A stretch of 64,000 nt of DNA from Escherichia phage vB_EcoM_LNA6. Positions 30,767 to 51,086 of the stretch are shown piece after piece. The notes beneath the pieces were generated by a model. The model was not told the origin of the DNA, searched no databases, and saw nothing but the letters and a program-made list of their open reading frames with translations. A program made the position numbers and the translations under genes. Position 1 is the first letter of the stretch, and each line of letters opens with the position of its first letter. The DNA lies in sequence record OM630585.1, one strand, 5' to 3'.

Positions 30767-30957
30767 TACTCAATGTCAATAAGTTCTTGTGCAATGCTTT
30801 TCAGATTACCTTTCAAGAAAACCTTCTCAGAACATGAAAGAGATGAATTGTCAATTAACCTGTTCATTCTCTCAAACAGCTTCTGCTTACGATTTTTGAT
30901 AGTCTCCTTTGAAGCACCTTTCATCATCGCTGCATGGGTTCTTCCACGATGGCTCAT
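30748..30957 (-). CDS. hypothetical protein
   Basis: 69 aa basic ORF. Confidence 0.35.
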   Translation of the reverse strand: MSHRGRTHAAMMKGASKETIKNRKQKLFERMNRLIDNSSLSCSEKVFLKGNLKSIAQELIDIEYWRHQK

Positions 30958-31018
30958 AAGCCCTCCTATATAAGATATAGTATAAGGTACTCTTCCCTGA
31001 GCACCTTGTCAATACTAA

Positions 31019-31575
31019 TCAGTGTACCTCAAGCCAATTCTTACCAACTTTACCAGTACCAGTTACAAGCGTTTCCTCCTTAAGTCCTAAGTTTCTTGAT
31101 GCCTGACCATACATCCAGTCAATCACTGCTTTAACATCTTGTGTCATCTCTTCTGGGCACTCCCAACTATTTTCATCGTGGTATGCTAGAAGCAATCTAG
31201 CACCAATAGCTGGTTTTCGACCATTCAGCTTTGTAAGACCCTCTTCACAAGTTCTTCTACAAGCGAGGTTGATGGCTTCATTCTGAACCTGACTTTCCGA
31301 ACCCATGAGCAGATAATTCAATAGTTTGTGTGGAGATTTACACCACAACCATGCACCAGCAACCTTTACAAAACCACCTTTAGAAATTGCAGCAGTCTTA
31401 CCAAATACCTCTTCAAGAGCCTTCTTAGTGGCTTTGAAGTCAGCTTCCAAATTATCTATCAACTTTTTAATCTTAGGGAGGCGTACAAAGTAAGTTTGCT
31501 TAGTTAAAGCACCTTCTTCGGTTGTTGATGCTTTAATCGTCTTGGCAAACTTCTCATCACCTGCCCCAAACAATA
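31019..31575 (-). CDS. DNA polymerase (family A, T7 gp5-like), exon 2
   Basis: Begins in motif B (..LFGAGDEKF, cf. T7 YGFLYGAGDEK) and ends with motif C region HDENSWECPEE and C-terminal GKNWLEVH; exon boundary inferred. Confidence 0.75.
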
Positions 31576-32376
31576 CATCTGGTCAATACACTCGCAAGGT
31601 GTACCAGTTCTCTTATGAACTTCTCCGCATTTCTACGGAGTGTCGGACTATATCACGTAGTAGTAATACTACCGTTGCACTTGGGAATGGTCATTAGCTT
31701 ACCACCCTACTCTACTCAGTTCATACATTAAGTATGCTTTTCGATAGTCTCTGAACGTTTCTCTGTTAGGAACTCTAAAATACTATTGTTTACTAAGGTA
31801 TGCAATTGCTCTCTGCATATTATCAACGCTATCTGCAAGCAACCCCAAAGCCCTATTGCAATTGTGGCACAACATACCTCTTACTTTTCCGGTTTTGTGG
31901 TCATGGTCAACGACAAGTTTAGCCTTATGCCGTGAACTATTCATGATAAAACCTTCACCGCCACAAATTTGACATTTGTAATCACAGTTACGGAGTAAGG
32001 TTTCAACCTCTTCTCTTTCTAAACCATATGTTCTCAGGTAGTAATTCTTAACTCTACCTTTCTCTCCGCAATGCGAAGAACAATAAACTTGCCTTGCTGT
32101 TCTAGGCATGAACACCTTCTCACAGCTAGGACATTTCTTAGTAAGAACCCTATGTTCTGCTCTTCTGTCAAATTTTAATACGCAACTTCTGCACCGTTTT
32201 TGATTGTATTGGTATGGTTTAAACTCTGCACCACACTCAGTACACAATCTCTCTTTGTAACCTGCCATTGTCTCTCCCCTTTGCTTTAGGAGTCCTAACA
32301 GAGACTTCGCTGCTGATTACCATATCTTTACAGACTTAGGCTTCCAGCAATTCACAACGTTTTACATGCGCCACTG
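31576..32376 (-). mobile_element. group I intron interrupting the DNA polymerase gene in motif B (boundaries approximate)
   Basis: Minus strand shows GTTCAGAGACTATCG (R/P7 5' strand) and GATATAGTCCGAC (S/P7 3' strand) downstream of the HNH ORF, plus a CTCCG-TAGAAAT-CGGAG hairpin; polymerase reading frame interrupted by stops on both sides. Confidence 0.7.
31783..32268 (-). CDS. HNH homing endonuclease (endonuclease VII-like), intron-encoded
   Basis: 161 aa; multiple CxxC pairs and LVVDHDHKTGKVRGMLCHNCNRALG, a His-Me finger/EndoVII-type HNH motif; lies wholly inside the polymerase intron. Confidence 0.75.
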   Translation of the reverse strand: MAGYKERLCTECGAEFKPYQYNQKRCRSCVLKFDRRAEHRVLTKKCPSCEKVFMPRTARQVYCSSHCGEKGRVKNYYLRTYGLEREEVETLLRNCDYKCQICGGEGFIMNSSRHKAKLVVDHDHKTGKVRGMLCHNCNRALGLLADSVDNMQRAIAYLSKQ

Positions 32377-34519
32377 ACGCATAAATGCCATTCTTGGCTT
32401 TCTTACGACCCTTACTAATTTCTTGAAGAAGGTTTGTATCCTGAGTAGCTCGACAAGTCAAGATATCTTCCTCTTTATTAAGGCTGAAGTAGATGCTATT
32501 TAAAGTATGCGCATCAGTTCCTGAGTACACCACGTACAAGTCATTTTCAGAATCATAATGCAAATACTTGTCAATCTCTGGGTTTAGATACTGGTCAAAA
32601 TGTTTGCAATAGTATCTGCCATCCTCTTGTTTGACAAACTCAACTTCTTCTTTACCCTCTGTCACTGCTTTGGTGAACTCTTTATCACCCATAAAGTTAC
32701 ACAGCAGTACAAGTTGCGCGCTATTCATATCTGCTGAAACAATATTAGTTCCTTCTTCACAAGTCCACACCTCCCTCATAGGTGCTCCATAGACAGCAGC
32801 ACCAGACGGTACGTTTACAATACCATATTGTGTCATACGTCCAGTTGAAGTGCCAAACACCATTGCACCAGCACTAAGGCGACCATCAGGACGAATCTGG
32901 TTCAACCAACCTTTTTCATCATCCTTTGAGTTCTCAATAGTTCTGCGTCGGTGCATCAAAGTATAGTACTTAGCAATCTTCTGTCCAAGCTCACCTTCAA
33001 TCGTATCATAAGATGATTCAGTAAGTTTTGGTGAAGTACGGATTAAGCAAGGTTCAAGCAAATCTGTGTATTTCTTCACAGACCAGTTATGCTCAATATA
33101 CTGTACACCTTCGTGCTCAACATAGCTCAAACCACACCGCTCAACCATTTCCTGCCACTTAGGATGTTTTGTAATCATCTTTTTATTGTCTTTGAAACGA
33201 CAAACTTTGACAGGGCGACCATCTGAGTCTTTCTTGTAGTTCCAGTCATCTGGAATCCAACCAACTGATTTCAAGTAGTCTTTAACAACTGCTACCTGAG
33301 TCATACGAGAAACTTCAAACTCAATTGGTGTATACGGTGCATCAATCAAACCTGTGTAGCGACTTGACTCAAGTTCAAAGTGGTTAACAACGTGACTGTT
33401 ATAGTACTTCACAGTTTTGACTGTTTTTACTGGCTTCCAGTCTTTGCATTTCTTACCAATCTTTGCATTCAACTCATTGCAAATTTCACGAGCATCCTTC
33501 ATTGCTACAAAACCCTCCTTGTACTCTTCACCAGTTACAGAGTTGGTTGGTGTATAGCAATTTCTCTTTTCAATGTTAAAAATCTTTGTAGTTGGCTTAC
33601 CAAATGGCTTGATTTCATATGTCTGCATCTCACCATTACGTACCTGCTGACGATACTTTGTCTTAGGGTACTTGGTAATCCTCTTCAGTCCATCTGCATG
33701 ACCAAATGTTTCAACATACTCATTCCAAGCCCTTGCAAACTCTTCTCCAGTGACTTTACCTTTGGTCTTAATAGTTGGAGGAAGATGTGGTTCAACCTCT
33801 GAAGCAAGCTCATTAGTCAACTTGTCAAGTTCCTTTACATGGAACTCCATAAGCTCTTTATCAGCTTTCCAACCATTGATAGCTTGCTGGCTCATCCAGA
33901 AAGATGTCTCTTTAGCTCGCATGTAGGTTTCATAAGTGTCTATGCCACACTTCTTAAGCTTGAGATACTCGTTATCAAGTGCCCGTTTAGTTTTGGTGTT
34001 AATACGGATATCTTCTACAACACGAGTGAAGATTTCTGCATTCCACACACCCCAATGTTCAATCTCTGGTTTACGAACACCGACACGAGCACCCCATGCA
34101 GCCAAACCATGAGCACCTTTATAACCCCTTGGAGTTGGTCTATCCATCCACTGAACACGAGACTGAATAAGAGAATCCTGAAAGAAATTACTCCACGGCT
34201 TACACTTTGGATTATCAAAGTTCCATAAATCAGGTGCAATGTGATTGAAAACCCACCAGTCATAACCGAGACCGTTATGGATGCAAAGACGTTTTGCCTT
34301 TAACGCAAACTCAACACCTTCACGTAAACCACCCTTAATGTACTTGGTATACTTGTGACCGAGGATAGGCTCATCTGTGAAGACCCATACAGGTGGCTCT
34401 TCATCGTCAGATTTATAGTCTGCAAAAGCCATTACGTGAACTTTAGTGAACTCAAGGAGTAAACCATCAGTCTCTGTATCACCAACCAAATGTAAGTTTT
34501 TAAAATCTATGTTTTCCAT
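32377..34519 (-). CDS. DNA polymerase (family A, T7 gp5-like), exon 1 with 3'-5' exonuclease domain
   Basis: N-terminal VGDTETDGL (Exo I DxE); regions YTPIEFEV, GRLSAGAMVFGTSTGR and ADMNSAQLVLLCNFMG align from memory with T7 DNA polymerase; ends in motif B RKKAKNGIY. Confidence 0.8.
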
Positions 34520-34692
34520 TTTTTACTCCCTCTAAAACCATTAACCCCATACATTACTGCAAAAAATTATAAAAAGCAAGTTGACAATGCACTTGACAAG
34601 GTGTTAATCTTTGCGAAGTGGGTTTTTACTTAAAAGGTTACTTAACAGTTTAACTATACAGATACTTTAAAACTCTTAAAAGATTATTTAAT

Positions 34693-34734
34693 AGCTTTTA
34701 AAAAGCTTTAAAGTATAACGTATAGAATACGTTA
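34693..34734. promoter_or_regulatory. paired palindromes in AT-rich divergent intergenic region (candidate operator/origin elements)
   Basis: AGCTTTTAAAAAGCT (34693-34707) and AACGTAT-AGA-ATACGTT (34718-34734) between polymerase (minus) and + strand gene 34778. Confidence 0.3.
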
Positions 34735-34777
34735 AGATAAAAGATTAAAACTTAATAGTTACTTAAAAGAGGCTTAC

Positions 34778-35200
34778 ATGCAGAAAATGTTTGTTCACCC
34801 AGACATAGCTGACTTTGTTAGAGCTTTGCAGAAGTTGGAAGAACTTGACATTGCTGCTCAACGGGAATATGCTCACCATCACAGGAGAATGGTTGATATA
34901 CAACATGAAATAGAGTTGTCTGAAAACTATGAAGATGACTTAAAATGCTCTGTATTTGAGCATATGAAAGATGTTGCTACAGCGAGACGTAAAGCTAAAG
35001 ACACAGTTGCTTTACTAGATTCTCTTAAAAAGAGGTTGCAAAGTGGTACAGACTTGTGTAATCTAGCATCACTTATTAACGATGTTGAAACTTCTTGGGA
35101 TAGGCACTATTATCCACGTTCTGAAAAGACACTTGACTTTTCTTCATCAGAAAACTTAAAATGTTCTAGAAAGAAACTTAACCAACTGAGAGAGAAATAA
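34778..35200 (+). CDS. hypothetical protein
   Basis: 140 aa ORF. Confidence 0.4.
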   Translation: MQKMFVHPDIADFVRALQKLEELDIAAQREYAHHHRRMVDIQHEIELSENYEDDLKCSVFEHMKDVATARRKAKDTVALLDSLKKRLQSGTDLCNLASLINDVETSWDRHYYPRSEKTLDFSSSENLKCSRKKLNQLREK

Positions 35201-48199: not shown

Positions 48200-49396
48200 A
48201 TGAACAAAGTACAGATTATTAAAAAGAACGGCTCACTTGAAGAACCTGATATCAAAAAAGTTTTAGCAGCAGTCACAAAGTCAGCTAACAGAGTTGGTTA
48301 TAAAGAGCTTCCACCAGATGTTACTCAAGCTCTTGAGTCAGCATTTATGAGGATTCTGGTAAAATCTACTAAGCAGAATAATTTACTCGTTTCAGTAAAT
48401 GATATTCACAGTATTGTTGAGGGTGCTTTGGCAGAAGTCAATCACGAGATTTATGAGTCTTACTCAACATATAGAAATTACCGTAAAGAGGTTGCTCAAA
48501 ATTGGGATGAACTTTACCAGAAGACCAAAGATACACTCTTCTTAGGTGACCGAGAAAACGCTAATTTTGACAGCAGTTTAATTTCTACAAAAGGTTCAAT
48601 TATTCGTGGTTACCTGACTAAAGAAATCTTTAAACAGTACCACTTAACACCAGAGGAACTTGAAGCCATTGAAAAAGGGTTTATTTATATCCATGACTTA
48701 AGAGACCTAATTTTTGGTGGTATCAACTGTTGTCTGTTTGACATTGGTAAAGTGCTGAAAGGTGGCTTTGAAATGTCTGGCATTGAATATTGTGAACCGA
48801 AGTCTGTACTGTCAGCATTACAGGTTATTGGCGATGTAGTTCTTTCAGCAACTGCACAGCAATTTGGTGGCTTTACTTTAGCAGAGATTGATAAGGTACT
48901 TGTACCGTATGCTAAAAAATCTTTAGTGTACCACTCAGAGAAAGCTGAAGAGTACGGAATCCCTAAAGAGCAACACTATAATTACGTAATGGAGCAATTA
49001 CAGAATGAGTTAACACAAGGTTTCCAATCTCTTGAAATGAAACTTAACACTGTTCCTTGCAGTCGCGGTGATTTTGCATTTACTACTCTGACATTTGGTC
49101 TGTTGGAACCAGATATGCACAATGAAGATAACCGTCTTCAGTTTATGATTGCCAATACAATCCTTAACGTAAGGATGAACGGGCAAGGAAAAAGCAAAAA
49201 ACCTGTTGTGTTCCCTAAACTTGTGTATATCTATGAAGAAACGAGACATAAGCTTGATGTATGCCAAGTAAGGTTGTTTGAAAAAGCTATTGAGTGTTGC
49301 TCTAAAGCTATGTATCCAGATTTCTTAAGTGTATCTGGTCATGGTGCTGTAGCAGAGGCTTTTGAGCGTTCTGGTAAGGTAATTTCCCCGATGGGT
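48200..49396 (+). CDS. nrdD: anaerobic ribonucleoside-triphosphate reductase, exon 1
   Basis: YIHDLRD..GGINCCLFD...EPKSVLSALQVIGDVVLSATAQQFGGFTLAEIDKVL aligns from memory with T4 NrdD; exon ends ..ISPMG with final U at 49396 followed in-frame by TAA. Confidence 0.8.
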
Positions 49397-50138
49397 TAAC
49401 AAGCTCTATAGCTCATCTAAAACGTGCCTAAACAGGGAAACTCTACAGATGTAGACAATCCTGTGCTAAATGATGTACGATGTAAGAAACTATACAACAT
49501 AGGAGTCTTACATGCCAAACTATCACGTCACTGAAGATGGAAAAGTCTTTAGGGAAAATGGTGTAGAGCTTACGCAGTGGAAATCCAACACTGGGTATAT
49601 GAAAGTGAGGTTTTACGGTAAGAAGAATCGTGACATGTATGTCCACAGGTTAGTTGCTGAGAAATATGTACCTAACCCGAACAATCTTCCAATTGTAAAA
49701 CATAAGGACGATAACAAACTAAATAACCACGTATCTAACTTAGAATGGGGTACTCATTCTGAGAATGCTAAAGAAGGTTATGAGAATGGATGCTACAAGT
49801 TCCACAAGCGTTCATATGCCGTGAAAGCCACACACAAAGTGACAAAGGAAGTTATTGTTACTAAGTCAATACGAGAGTTATCCAATATACTTGGATACAA
49901 TCGCAAGACCATCTCTTCAATATTGAAGGGTGTAAAAGAGCATAATAACTTCGAATATGAGTTTGAATACATCTAAATGCCGAACGACTAACCGTGATGA
50001 ATGTAGCGGTGTAGGGTCAAGCGACTCGAAATGGTACGCTACTTAGAAATAAGTAGAAGATATAGTCTGGACTTACTGGCGACAGTAAGCAGCTTGAATA
50101 AAGCGGGGTAAGCTTAGCGAACTTACCTGAACAATAAG
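49397..50138 (+). mobile_element. group I intron in nrdD
   Basis: Interrupts NrdD between ..VISPMG and CRAFLS.. (cf. T4 ..VSPMGCRSFLS); intron ends with G 50138; core GACTCGAAA (P7 5'), CTACTTA-GAAA-TAAGTAG (P8, 7 bp stem, GAAA loop), AGATATAGTC (P7 3') at about 50018-50065. Confidence 0.75.
49512..49976 (+). CDS. HNH homing endonuclease with NUMOD-like HTH, intron-encoded
   Basis: 154 aa; VHRLVAEKY...HKDDNKLNNHVSNLEWGTHSEN HNH motif; C-terminal SIRELSNILGYNRKTISSILKG HTH-like; inside nrdD intron. Confidence 0.7.
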   Translation: MPNYHVTEDGKVFRENGVELTQWKSNTGYMKVRFYGKKNRDMYVHRLVAEKYVPNPNNLPIVKHKDDNKLNNHVSNLEWGTHSENAKEGYENGCYKFHKRSYAVKATHKVTKEVIVTKSIRELSNILGYNRKTISSILKGVKEHNNFEYEFEYI

Positions 50139-51086
50139 TGTAGAGCATTTTTATCACCATACCATAACGAATATGGTGAAGAGTTTTATGTAGGTCGTGC
50201 TAACATTGGTGCTGTATCTTTGAACTTACCAATGATTTACCAGTATTCTAAAGAGAAGGGCTTAGATTTCTGGAAAGAGCTTGATAAGTACCTAGAGATG
50301 ATTCGCAGCTTCCACAAGAAACGCTACGAAATGATTGCTAATATGCCAGCAAGTTCTAACCCTCTTGCATTCACACAAGGTGGTCTGTACAAAGGGACTA
50401 AGAAACCTACTGACAAGGTTGGTTGGGATATCGTGAAGTCCTTCACAGCTTCTTTTGGGGTTACTGCTCTTGATGAACTGTCTGTTCTTGCTGAAGGTAA
50501 ACGACTTCATGAAGTTGGAAGATATAGTTTTGCATACGATGTTCTGGAATACATCAACATGAAAACTGAAGAGTTTAAGAACGAAGATGGCTTCTTGTAT
50601 GCGGTATATGGCACTCCAGCAGAATCACTTTGTGGAACTCAGTTAAAACAGTTCAGAGATATGTTTGGCGTTATTAAAGGTGTCTCTGACAAGGAATACT
50701 TTACAAACAGTTTCCATATGAATGTTGCAGCAGACATCTCACCATTTGAGAAGCAGGACTTAGAAGAGCCATTCTTCCATATCTGTAGAGGTGGCAGAAT
50801 CCAGTATGTAAGGGTAGCTAACCCAGAAAACTTAACAGCACTTAAAAGTTGTATTACCAGAGGGATGTTGAAGGGTTTTTATCAGGGACTTAACTTTAAC
50901 TTAGCAATCTGTGAACATTGTGGTAACAGACCAAAGGCTGATGTTGAAGAATGTGAGGTTTGTCATTCACACGATATCTCTGTGATTAACAGGGTGTGCG
51001 GATATTTGGGATGGACTAAGATTAAAGGTGAATCCCGAATGAATGATGCAAAAATCGCTGAGATTCGTGACAGAATTTCTATGTAA
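50139..51086 (+). CDS. nrdD: anaerobic ribonucleoside-triphosphate reductase, exon 2
   Basis: Open frame from 50139 (CRAFLSPYHNEYGEEF..); YFTNSFHMNV and C-terminal glycyl-radical region RVCGYLGW align from memory with T4 NrdD. Confidence 0.8.
   Translation, partial: CRAFLSPYHNEYGEEFYVGRANIGAVSLNLPMIYQYSKEKGLDFWKELDKYLEMIRSFHKKRYEMIANMPASSNPLAFTQGGLYKGTKKPTDKVGWDIVKSFTASFGVTALDELSVLAEGKRLHEVGRYSFAYDVLEYINMKTEEFKNEDGFLYAVYGTPAESLCGTQLKQFRDMFGVIKGVSDKEYFTNSFHMNVAADISPFEKQDLEEPFFHICRGGRIQYVRVANPENLTALKSCITRGMLKGFYQGLNFNLAICEHCGNRPKADVEECEVCHSHDISVINRVCGYLGWTKIKGESRMNDAKIAEIRDRISM

What the first reader, a model, noticed from the sequence alone, without database searches (positions are those of the whole stretch)
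31576..32376. Group I intron with EndoVII-type HNH homing endonuclease splitting the DNA polymerase inside motif B
The family A polymerase frame stops at 32336 and resumes at about 31575; the two parts align from memory with contiguous T7 gp5 sequence (AKNGIY.. and ..LFGAGDEKF across motif B). The intervening 0.8 kb carries an HNH ORF (LVVDHDHKTGKVRGMLCHNCN) and, downstream of it on the minus strand, GTTCAGAGACTATCG and GATATAGTCCGAC resembling conserved group I R and S (P7) elements, plus stem-loops. The proposed junction (exon 1 ends at U 32377, intron ends at G 31576, giving ..IYALLFGAG..) restores T7-like motif B spacing but is inferred.
Basis: partly seen in the sequence, partly recalled or inferred. 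Interest (0 to 1): 0.65.

Follow-up and report, generated by a model that had tools for sequence, protein, structure and literature searches.

The report
Self-splicing intron in phage DNA polymerase

Summary
The window is a Felixounavirus, 97.9% identical to Escherichia phage LinBro.

- **Insertion:** Its family A DNA polymerase gene (minus strand) carries an 801-nt insert at 31576-32376. Intron-less relatives (wV8, SUSP2, HP1) lack it base for base.
- **Joined exons:** The ligated exons give ..KNGIYA|LLFGAGDEK.. and align without a gap to T7 gp5 motif B. The joined protein scores 59.2 bits on Pfam DNA_pol_A (cut-off 34.3). The two halves score 18.7 and 27.3, both below it.
- **Ribozyme:** The insert folds as a subgroup IA2 group I intron. 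It has a U·G pair at the 5' splice site, P10, P3-P9 with P7.1/P7.2, P9.1/P9.2 and a terminal G.
- **Rfam:** RF00028 misses the insert at the gathering score only because a 161-aa ORF sits in the P6a loop. ORF-less copies in sister phages score 59.9-63.7 bits (cut-off 50).
- **ORF:** It is an Endonuclease VII-type (DHHRN) ββα-metal nuclease with every catalytic residue present.

Fang et al. 2018 already list the orthologues in JH2, EC6 and FSL SP-010 as intron-encoded. Splicing and cleavage remain untested. Verdict: correct, but already known and of low interest.

The parts
32377..34519 (-). Exon 1 of the family A DNA polymerase gene (714 codons plus 1 nt). It ends ...AAU GGC AUU UAU GCG U.
   Evidence: ORF list. 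Junction fixed by gapless alignment to intron-less wV8, SUSP2 and HP1.
31576..32376 (-). The 801-nt group I (IA2) intron. It begins CAGUGG and ends CCAGAUG, with the terminal G at 31576.
   Evidence: RF00028 hits.
32365..32376 (-). Internal guide sequence. Intron nt 1-5 (CAGUG) pair with the first 5 nt of exon 2 (UAUUG) to form P10. Nt 6-12 (GCGCAUG) pair with the last 7 nt of exon 1 (UAUGCGU) to form P1, with a U·G pair at the splice site.
   Evidence: Read directly from the sequence. Both helices are invariant and fully paired in 9 related introns.
32336..32338 (-). TAA stop codon in the exon 1 reading frame, 41 nt into the intron. It terminates translation of unspliced RNA.
32290..32359 (-). 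5' half of the ribozyme core: P3 5' strand (32353-32359), P4 (32344-32349 with 32311-32316), P5/P5a hairpin with a GUAA loop (32320-32340), P6 (32308-32310) and the P6a 5' strand (32290-32304).
   Evidence: RF00028 alignment at 28.1 bits. Recovered by unconstrained MFE folding. Pair counts.
32274..32279 (-). Shine-Dalgarno-like GGGGAG, 5 nt upstream of the nuclease start codon, inside the P6a loop.
   Evidence: Sequence. Inferred function.
31783..32268 (-). Homing endonuclease gene, 161 aa. It has two N-terminal zinc-ribbon-like CX2C...C motifs and a C-terminal Endo VII/DHHRN catalytic domain: C99-X2-C102, D121-H-D-H124, R130, C134-X2-C137-N138.
   Evidence: Pfam PF02945 at 69.3 bits. PDB Hpy99I E=2.5e-5 and T4 Endo VII E=6e-3. 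Residue positions.
31576..31775 (-). 3' half of the ribozyme: P6a 3' strand (31760-31775), R element/P7 5' (31742-31756), P7.1 (31722-31736), P7.2 (31683-31707), P3 3' (31673-31679), P8 (31657-31672), S element/P7 3' (31642-31654), P9 with a GAAA loop (31623-31640), P9.1 (31607-31620), P9.2 (31580-31606) and the terminal G (31576).
   Evidence: RF00028 alignments, MFE folding, pair counts, coordinates.
31019..31575 (-). Exon 2 of the polymerase gene. It begins UA UUG UUU GGG GCA GGU and encodes (L)LFGAGDEKF... through to the stop codon.

Best explanation
The 801 nt at 31576-32376 (minus strand) are a mobile, self-splicing group I intron of subgroup IA2. It interrupts the phage's essential family A DNA polymerase gene inside motif B (the O-helix).

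Inferred mechanism, from what is established for group I introns:
1. The gene is transcribed as one pre-mRNA.
2. The intron's guide sequence pairs with the last 7 nt of exon 1 (P1, with a U·G pair at the splice site) and the first 5 nt of exon 2 (P10).
3. The P3-P9 core binds guanosine at P7 and carries out two transesterifications.
4. These join U32377 to U31575 and restore ..KNGIYALLFGAGDEK.. in an 899-aa polymerase.
5. Unspliced RNA is translated only as far as the TAA 41 nt into the intron.

The loop of P6a carries a 161-aa Endo VII-type (DHHRN, ββα-metal) nuclease gene with its own ribosome-binding site. By analogy with other intron-encoded nucleases, it nicks or cuts intron-less polymerase alleles of co-infecting relatives near this site. 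Repair then copies the intron in (homing).

Shown here:
- the exact insertion;
- the restored polymerase;
- the group I core, by covariance model on orthologues;
- full base-pairing, with two compensatory changes;
- an intact nuclease active-site motif;
- a population of full, decayed, ORF-less and intron-less alleles.

Inferred only: splicing, nuclease activity, its target, and homing.
For: 1. Exact insertion. The ligated exons match intron-less wV8, SUSP2 and HP1 base for base, and only this junction keeps the Leu codon. All 10 intron-bearing alleles examined share the junction TATGCGT|...G|TATTG.
2. Restored polymerase. The ligated protein scores 59.2 bits on Pfam DNA_pol_A (cut-off 34.3), and the best match spans the junction. 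The halves score 18.7 and 27.3. The alignment to T7 gp5 across motif B is gapless.
3. Covariance model. RF00028 scores 28.1 bits (E=7.6e-5) on P3-P6 in the window. ORF-less copies in Mushroom, NBSal004 and fKMPT1 score 62.3, 63.7 and 59.9 bits against a cut-off of 50. In those copies everything outside the P6a/ORF region is nearly identical to the window's ribozyme (alignment; 97-99.7% over matched segments).
4. Structure. A hand-built structure of 90 pairs (P1, P10, P3-P9.2) is 100% paired across 9 introns. Pairing falls to 29-48% when partners are slid. There are compensatory U-A to C-G changes in P6a and P8 and one A-U to G·U change in P7.1. All other variation lies in loops. Unconstrained MFE folding recovers P3, P4, P5, P6/P6a, P7.1, P7.2, P8, P9 and P9.1.
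5. Nuclease. Pfam Endonuclease_7 E=2.7e-19; PDB Hpy99I and T4 Endo VII; CX2C, DHDH, R and CX2C-N all present. It is 50% identical to the intron-encoded nucleases of Yersinia phage Berlin and a LUZ24-like Pseudomonas phage. Between two ORF alleles, 53 codon differences are synonymous and 28 non-synonymous.
6. Allele states among relatives: intact ORF, frameshifted ORF (VpaE1), ORF remnant (Mushroom, 311 nt), minimal 267-268 nt intron, and no intron.
7. Conservation. The ribozyme is 98-100% identical between phages whose flanking 100 nt of exon are only 73-81% identical.
8. Literature. The orthologues in JH2, EC6 and FSL SP-010 are listed as intron-encoded (PMC6083498).
Against: - The window itself has no RF00028 hit at the gathering score. 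The in-window evidence is two sub-threshold partial hits, so the full-score evidence comes from orthologues.
- Covariation is thin. 87 of 90 pairs never vary, because the available introns are near-identical, and only 2 pairs show double changes.
- The MFE z-score of the ORF-less ribozyme is only -1.82.
- No RNA or protein data were found for spliced product in any Felixounavirus.
- GenBank records uniformly annotate two separate polymerase CDSs.
Confidence: 0.93

Rival explanations
1. The polymerase is a genuinely split enzyme. Two polypeptides are translated separately and assemble, a free-standing Endo VII-like gene lies between them, and no RNA splicing occurs. This is how GenBank records annotate the locus.
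For: Database records annotate 'DNA polymerase (x2)' plus 'endonuclease VII'. The ORF finder offers a TTG start at 31573 for the second part.
Against: - The break falls inside motif B, between the equivalents of T7 K522/Y526 and Y530.
- Neither half reaches the Pfam cut-off, but the ligated protein does.
- The putative TTG start is an internal Leu codon of the intron-less genes with no Shine-Dalgarno sequence upstream (sequence). Records disagree on where the second CDS starts.
- The spacer scores as a group I intron once the ORF is absent and is far more conserved than the coding flanks.
- 267-268 nt ORF-less spacers persist at the same site, which a free-standing gene does not explain.
Confidence: 0.03
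2. The insert is a group I intron whose nuclease gene is inactive or serves another role (for example a maturase or a remnant). The intron would then be an immobile, vertically inherited passenger rather than a homing element.
For: - Related alleles show ORF decay and loss (VpaE1 frameshift, Mushroom remnant, 267-268 nt forms).
- No cleavage data exist.
- The two ORF alleles differ by 23% while their ribozymes are near-identical. A simple history of whole-intron homing would not predict this.
Against: - In this window the ORF is intact with all catalytic and zinc ligands, and synonymous differences exceed non-synonymous ones (53 to 28).
- The intron is patchily distributed, in roughly 95-98 of 259 related records.
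- The ribozyme is near-identical in polymerase genes whose flanks are 19-27% divergent, which points to lateral spread.
Confidence: 0.12
3. The insert is an intein or a group II intron rather than a group I intron.
For: None beyond the fact that a conserved polymerase motif is interrupted.
Against: - The insert is not in frame with the exons and has a stop codon 41 nt in.
- No match to any RNA family other than RF00028 passes E=0.05 anywhere in the window.
- The canonical group I P, Q, R and S elements are present.
Confidence: 0.005

Closest known systems
The same intron in Felix O1-like phages JH2, EC6 and FSL SP-010, whose Endo VII-motif proteins Fang et al. 2018 list as intron-encoded (Mob DNA 9:27, PMC6083498)
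   Same: Orthologous element at the same site. The JH2 intron is 92.8% identical in nucleotides and its nuclease 96.3% identical in protein. EC6 and FSL SP-010 carry the second ORF allele, about 80% identical in protein.
   Different: Nothing of substance. That paper classified only the proteins. It did not describe the ribozyme, the junction or the ORF-less forms, and did no experiment on these phages.
[quoted passage not shown]
   Same: - IA2-type architecture, with P7.1/P7.2, a GNRA loop on P9 and the ORF between P6 and P7.
- In Berlin the P9.1 hairpin GUUCAUAAGAGAAC is identical to the window's.
- The nucleases are 50% identical over about 115 aa.
- The host gene is a family A polymerase and the target is motif B.
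   Different: - The insertion sites differ: Berlin is 11 nt upstream and the LUZ24-like phage 6 nt upstream of the Felix-like site.
- The guide sequences differ.
- The Felix-like nuclease has an extra N-terminal zinc-ribbon repeat.
- The ribozymes are not specifically close. Berlin's 3' half resembles this window's nrdD intron (z=12) more than its polymerase intron (z=4).
The ΦI/W31 introns of T7-like phages (Bonocora & Shub 2004) and the Pf-WMP3, SPO1, SP82 and Bastille DNA polymerase introns
   Same: Self-splicing IA2 introns in phage family A polymerase genes. For ΦI, W31 and Pf-WMP3 the nuclease ORF is in P6a. The Pf-WMP3 intron lacks P2 and has P7.1/P7.2 linked by G-U-A (as described in PMC3428280). 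The window intron also has the ORF in P6a, no P2, and P7.1/P7.2 preceded by GUA.
   Different: - The reported insertion sites are E. coli Pol I positions 674, 676 and 881. The site here corresponds to about 763/764.
- Their nucleases (I-HmuI, I-BasI, I-PfoP3I, I-TslI) are described as classical HNH family, not the Endo VII/DHHRN type.
- Those introns have been shown to splice; this one has not.
- The 2004 paper could not be read here.
F-CphI (cyanophage S-PM2), Hpy99I and T4 endonuclease VII: characterised DHHRN/Endo VII-motif ββα-metal nucleases
   Same: The catalytic motif CX2C...DHDH...R...CX2C-N is conserved.
   Different: [quoted passage not shown] Here the motif is C-terminal and the gene lies inside the intron.

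Membership tests
Group I intron (Rfam RF00028) | Match to the covariance model at or above the curated gathering score (50 bits) | tested here: inconclusive
   Window: no hit at gathering, only partial hits of 28.1 bits (E=7.6e-5) and 15.4 bits, because a 514-nt ORF segment splits the core. ORF-less orthologues, nearly identical outside the P6a/ORF region, score 59.9-63.7 bits. The feature is therefore met for the element but not formally for this copy.
Group I intron (Rfam RF00028) | P1 helix formed by an internal guide sequence, with a U·G pair at the 5' splice site, and P10 with the 3' exon | tested here: met
   Exon UAUGCGU pairs with intron nt 6-12 (GCGCAUG), with U32377·G. Intron nt 1-5 (CAGUG) pair with exon 2 UAUUG. 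Both are fully paired in 9 of 9 introns.
Group I intron (Rfam RF00028) | Terminal guanosine at the 3' end of the intron | tested here: met
   G31576 precedes exon 2. The junction is fixed by intron-less alleles.
Group I intron (Rfam RF00028) | Conserved core P3-P8 with P/Q and R/S elements and a P7 guanosine-binding helix | tested here: met
   The Rfam alignment places AAUUGCUGG/AUCAGCAGC, GUUCAGAGACUA and GAUAUAGUCC on the P, Q, R and S positions. All 90 proposed pairs form. Covariation support is small (2 pairs).
Group I intron (Rfam RF00028) | Self-splicing with a guanosine cofactor | not testable with these tools
   Needs in vitro transcription and splicing, or RT-PCR.
Subgroup IA2 | Extra helices P7.1 and P7.2 between P7 and P3' | tested here: met
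   Hairpins at 31722-31736 and 31683-31707 lie between the R element and the P3 3' strand. MFE folding predicts both, and both are fully paired in 9 introns. GUA precedes P7.2, the feature PMC3428280 uses to assign IA2.
Endo VII-motif (DHHRN) homing endonucleases / Pfam PF02945 | Profile match above the curated cut-off, with conserved CX2-4C, DHDH, R and CX2C-N | tested here: met
   69.3 bits against a cut-off of 23.6. C99/C102, D121-H124, R130 and C134/C137/N138 are present. Hpy99I and T4 Endo VII are the only PDB matches.
Endo VII-motif (DHHRN) homing endonucleases / Pfam PF02945 | Site-specific cleavage of the intron-less allele, and promotion of homing | not testable with these tools
   Only indirect population evidence: patchy distribution, and a ribozyme more conserved than its flanks.
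Family A DNA polymerase (Pfam PF00476) as host gene | Profile match above the cut-off, with a contiguous motif B | tested here: met
   The ligated protein scores 59.2 bits against a cut-off of 34.3. Motif B aligns gaplessly to T7 gp5.
Intein | In-frame insertion translated together with the host protein | tested here: not met
   A stop codon lies 41 nt into the insert, and the nuclease ORF is separately initiated.

The most novel reading that the evidence does not exclude
One lineage of Endo VII-type nuclease genes (about 50% identical in protein) sits in IA2 introns at three different positions within an 11-nt stretch of polymerase motif B, in three unrelated phage groups:
- Berlin-like T7 relatives: AAG ACG UU^U.
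- LUZ24-like phages: AUC U^AU.
- Felix O1-like phages: GCG U^UA.

The ribozymes do not appear to be each other's closest relatives. This fits the idea that a nuclease targeting motif B repeatedly colonised separate introns lying next to its cut site, or that introns were retargeted over a few bases. That is a natural series for testing the Bonocora-Shub pathway of how mobile introns form. Within Felixounavirus, two ORF alleles that differ by 23% sit in near-identical ribozymes, which points the same way.
Probability: 0.4. Interest if true: 0.4.

Novelty: already known. Interest (0 to 1): 0.2.

Why it matters
The main value is for annotation.

- About 95-98 GenBank Felixounavirus records, several of them therapy or biocontrol candidates, carry this intron. 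They list the essential polymerase as two genes plus an 'endonuclease VII', and some add a spurious antisense ORF inside the ribozyme. The correct product is one 899-aa polymerase.
- Standard Rfam scanning misses the ORF-bearing form, which is a reminder that nuclease-carrying introns fall below curated thresholds.
- Biologically it is one more phage polymerase intron. It adds a motif B insertion site (E. coli Pol I position about 763/764) to the published sites 674, 676 and 881.
- The genus shows a clear gradient of intron states: intact, decaying, ORF-less and absent.

Tried and rejected
- **Rfam at gathering threshold on the whole window:** nothing. This reflects the ORF insertion, not the absence of an intron.
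- **Promoter and terminator scan of 30900-34800:** no more sites than chance, and none inside the intron. There is no evidence for separate transcription of the nuclease gene or of exon 2.
- **MFE z-score of the ORF-less ribozyme:** only -1.82. This is weakly informative, since the P3/P7 pseudoknot and tertiary contacts are not modelled.
- **Nucleotide similarity of the intron to T7-like Yersinia phages:** I first took this as ribozyme homology. It turned out to be confined to the nuclease ORF (intron nt 457-551).
- **Staphylococcus, Lactococcus, Flavobacterium and other phage hits to short core segments:** these are generic group I core similarity. The Staphylococcus hit lies next to holin and endolysin genes, not in a polymerase gene.
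- **Whether the polymerase introns of the Felix-like, Berlin-like and LUZ24-like phages share a specifically related ribozyme:** not supported.
- **Literature:** Bonocora & Shub 2004 and 2009 could not be read. Searches for 'VpaE1 + intron' and 'Ounavirinae + group I intron' found nothing. The Felix O1 genome paper reports no introns, and wV8's annotation cites the Felix O1 polymerase as a single protein. Felix O1's own sequence was not retrieved here.
- **A custom covariance model:** I did not build one. The available sequences are too similar for it to add information.

Full report
**What the window is**

The polymerase region (31000-34600, minus strand) is 97.9% identical to Escherichia phage LinBro and 88-96% identical to many Felix O1-like myoviruses (Ounavirinae, Felixounavirus). 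In total 259 phage records match. These records annotate the locus as two 'DNA polymerase' CDSs with an 'endonuclease VII' between them.

**Checking the observation**

On the minus strand a 727-aa ORF (32336..34519) and a 184-aa ORF (31019..31573) flank a 161-aa ORF (31783..32268).
- Pfam gives DNA_pol_A for both flanking ORFs, but below the cut-off of 34.3 bits: 18.7 and 27.3 bits.
- Pfam gives Endonuclease_7 for the middle ORF at 69.3 bits, E=2.7e-19.

Eighty-six records matched it over at least 80% of its length, and the listed intron-less ones matched as one uninterrupted piece. Alignment to wV8, SUSP2 and HP1 is gapless across the junction: AAGAATGG.AT.TATGC.|.T..TGTT.GG.

Shifting the junction by one base either way replaces the conserved Leu codon with Val or Ser. 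So the 801-nt insert is bounded exactly as proposed: exon 1 ends in U and the insert ends in G.

The ligated protein supports the same junction.
- It is 899 aa and scores 59.2 bits on DNA_pol_A, with the best stretch (680-896) spanning the junction at residue 714/715.
- It aligns to T7 gp5 517-701 with no gap in motif B: GRKKAKNGIYALLFGAGDEKF against TRDNAKTFIYGFLYGAGDEKI.

**Is it a group I intron?**

Rfam at gathering thresholds finds nothing in the window. With relaxed thresholds, RF00028 hits 32217-32353(-) at 28.1 bits, E=7.6e-5 (J3/4, P4, P5, P6). A second hit of 15.4 bits aligns GUUCAGAGACUA and GAUAUAGUCC to the R and S elements.

The low score has a simple cause: the ORF splits the core. 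Sister phages carry the same intron without the ORF.
- Mushroom has a 311-nt form; NBSal004, BPS15S6 and fKMPT1 have 267-268-nt forms.
- The three tested (Mushroom, NBSal004, fKMPT1) score 62.3, 63.7 and 59.9 bits over the full model, E about 1e-14, above the 50-bit cut-off.
- Outside the P6a/ORF region they are nearly identical to the window's ribozyme (alignment; 97-99.7% over matched segments).

**Structure**

Read from the sequence, with coordinates:
- **P1:** exon UAUGCGU pairs with intron nt 6-12 (GCGCAUG), with U32377·G at the splice site.
- **P10:** intron nt 1-5 (CAGUG) pair with exon 2 UAUUG.
- **P2:** absent.
- **P3:** CGUUGUG with UGCAACG.
- **P4, P5/P5a:** P5a has a GUAA tetraloop.
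- **P6 and P6a:** P6a is a 15-bp helix whose two strands (32290-32304 and 31760-31775) bracket the ORF.
- **P7:** R and S elements, with a bulged A.
- **P7.1 and P7.2:** both lie between P7 and P3', which marks subgroup IA2.
- **P8.**
- **P9:** GAAA tetraloop.
- **P9.1, P9.2 and the terminal G (31576).**

Unconstrained MFE folding of the ORF-deleted and natural ORF-less RNAs recovers every nested helix. The z-score is only -1.82.

On an alignment of nine Felixounavirus introns, all 90 proposed pairs form in 100% of cells. Pairing drops to 29-48% when partners are slid. U-A to C-G double changes occur in P6a and P8, and one A-U to G·U change in P7.1. All other variable positions lie in loops L5 and L8 or in bulges. 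Because 87 pairs never vary, this is consistency rather than strong covariation proof.

**The ORF**

It starts 5 nt after a GGGGAG and lies entirely in the P6a loop, as reported for the ΦI, W31 and Pf-WMP3 polymerase introns (PMC3428280).

Its C-terminal half carries the full Endo VII/DHHRN signature: C99-X2-C102, D121-H-D-H124, R130, C134-X2-C137-N138. The only PDB matches are Hpy99I (E=2.5e-5) and T4 endonuclease VII. These are the residues shown to be essential in F-CphI and T4 Endo VII (PMC6083498).

Outside the genus, the closest relatives are about 50% identical over roughly 115 aa. They are the intron-encoded proteins of Yersinia phage Berlin-type T7 relatives and of a LUZ24-like Pseudomonas phage. 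The Felix-like protein has an extra N-terminal zinc-ribbon repeat.

**Population picture**

Of about 259 related records, roughly 95-98 carry the intron. About 40 of those have the full-length ORF region, and the rest are ORF-less or deleted.
- VpaE1 has a frameshifted ORF.
- Mushroom keeps a 40-nt remnant.
- The 267-268-nt forms have a clean 4-bp P6a hairpin.
- Two ORF alleles exist, 77% identical in nucleotides and about 80% in protein. They differ by 53 synonymous and 28 non-synonymous codons.

Between phages carrying the two alleles, the ribozyme is 98-100% identical. The 100 nt of exon on each side are only 73-81% identical, no closer than to intron-less phages. This is the pattern expected of a laterally spreading element under a homing and decay cycle. 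However, near-identical ribozymes around diverged ORFs mean that either the ribozyme is under very strong constraint or the ORF and ribozyme are exchanged separately.

**Rival readings**

- **Split, unspliced polymerase.** This is very unlikely. The break is inside the O-helix, exon 2 has no credible start signal (the 'TTG start' is an internal Leu codon, and records disagree on the start), and ORF-less spacers persist and score as group I introns.
- **Intein or group II intron.** Both are excluded by the frame and the stop codon and by the absence of any other RNA-family hit.
- **Inactive nuclease.** This cannot be excluded without an experiment.

**Comparison with what is known**

Group I introns with HNH-type nuclease genes in phage family A polymerase genes are a well-known class. 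Examples are SPO1/SP82/Bastille, ΦI/W31, Pf-WMP3, phiL7 and LUZ24. Published insertion sites are at E. coli Pol I positions 674, 676 and 881. The site here corresponds to about 763/764, between T7 G527 and F528.

Fang et al. 2018 explicitly list the Endo VII-motif proteins of Escherichia phages JH2 and EC6 and Salmonella phage FSL SP-010 as intron-encoded members of their DHHRN family. Those are orthologues of this ORF, 96% and about 80% identical. The SPJ41 genome paper also reports 'two introns' among its ncRNAs.

The Felix O1 genome paper found no introns, and wV8's annotation cites the Felix O1 polymerase as a single protein. I did not retrieve Felix O1's own sequence. I found no paper describing the ribozyme, the junction or splicing for this genus. 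The element is therefore already known in kind and in this lineage, but it is uncharacterised and routinely mis-annotated.

**A side result**

The Berlin and LUZ24-like introns also lie in motif B, but 11 and 6 nt upstream of this site, and they use different guide sequences. Their nucleases are homologous to this one, yet the ribozymes are not specifically close. Berlin's 3' half resembles this window's nrdD intron (z=12) far more than its polymerase intron (z=4). This suggests that nuclease and ribozyme have separate histories. It is the most novel reading the data allow.

**Verdict**

The element is an ordinary, already recognised mobile group I intron. Interest is low (0.2).

Noticed in passing
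window 48200-51086 (+), RF00028 hit at 49909-50089: A second split gene. Two NrdD (anaerobic ribonucleotide reductase) ORFs, 48200..49399 and 50220..51086, match Pfam NRDD profile positions 1-250 and 284-560. They flank a 154-aa HNH_3 endonuclease ORF (49512..49976) and a sub-threshold group I intron hit (33.1 bits, E=1.2e-4). This is probably a second group I intron carrying a homing endonuclease gene. An nrdD split by a homing endonuclease gene is reported for the Felix O1-like phages UAB_Phi87, HB-2014 and JH2 (PMC4837284).
   Followed up: partly
window 31576-31775 against L008 (Yersinia phage Berlin) 2630-2777, and window 49977-50135: The 3' ribozyme half of the Berlin polymerase intron is much more similar to this window's nrdD intron (alignment z=12) than to this window's polymerase intron (z=4). 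Yet the Berlin and Felix-like polymerase introns carry homologous nuclease genes and an identical P9.1 hairpin (GUUCAUAAGAGAAC).
   Followed up: partly
L008 2098-2777 (Berlin), L014 1634-2302 (LUZ24-like phage WS1160), window 31576-32376: Three introns with related Endo VII-type nuclease genes sit at three different positions within 11 nt of polymerase motif B: after AAG ACG UU, after AUC U, and after GCG U.
   Followed up: partly
window 31783-32268 against L009/L010 (JLBYU32, FSL SP-107): Two nuclease ORF alleles, 77% identical in nucleotides, are embedded in ribozymes that are 98-100% identical. The exon flanks are only 73-81% identical. The ribozyme is far more conserved than anything around it, including its peripheral loops.
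   Followed up: partly
window 31542-31697 (+); LinBro L013 3369-3485 (-): A short ORF antisense to the 3' ribozyme is annotated as a 'hypothetical protein' in LinBro. The window has a 51-aa counterpart. It lies entirely inside conserved ribozyme helices and is probably a spurious gene call.
   Followed up: no
L010 (FSL SP-107) P8 loop; L001 (VpaE1) ORF: SP-107 has a 6-nt TACTAC duplication in the P8 hairpin. VpaE1 has a frameshifted nuclease ORF that is annotated as two genes.
   Followed up: no
records MG065668.1 (Campylobacter phage A126) and one 'Staphylococcus' record among the Felixounavirus hits: Records labelled as Campylobacter or Staphylococcus phages carry a Felixounavirus polymerase intron at about 99% identity. 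These are probably mislabelled or contaminated database entries.
   Followed up: no
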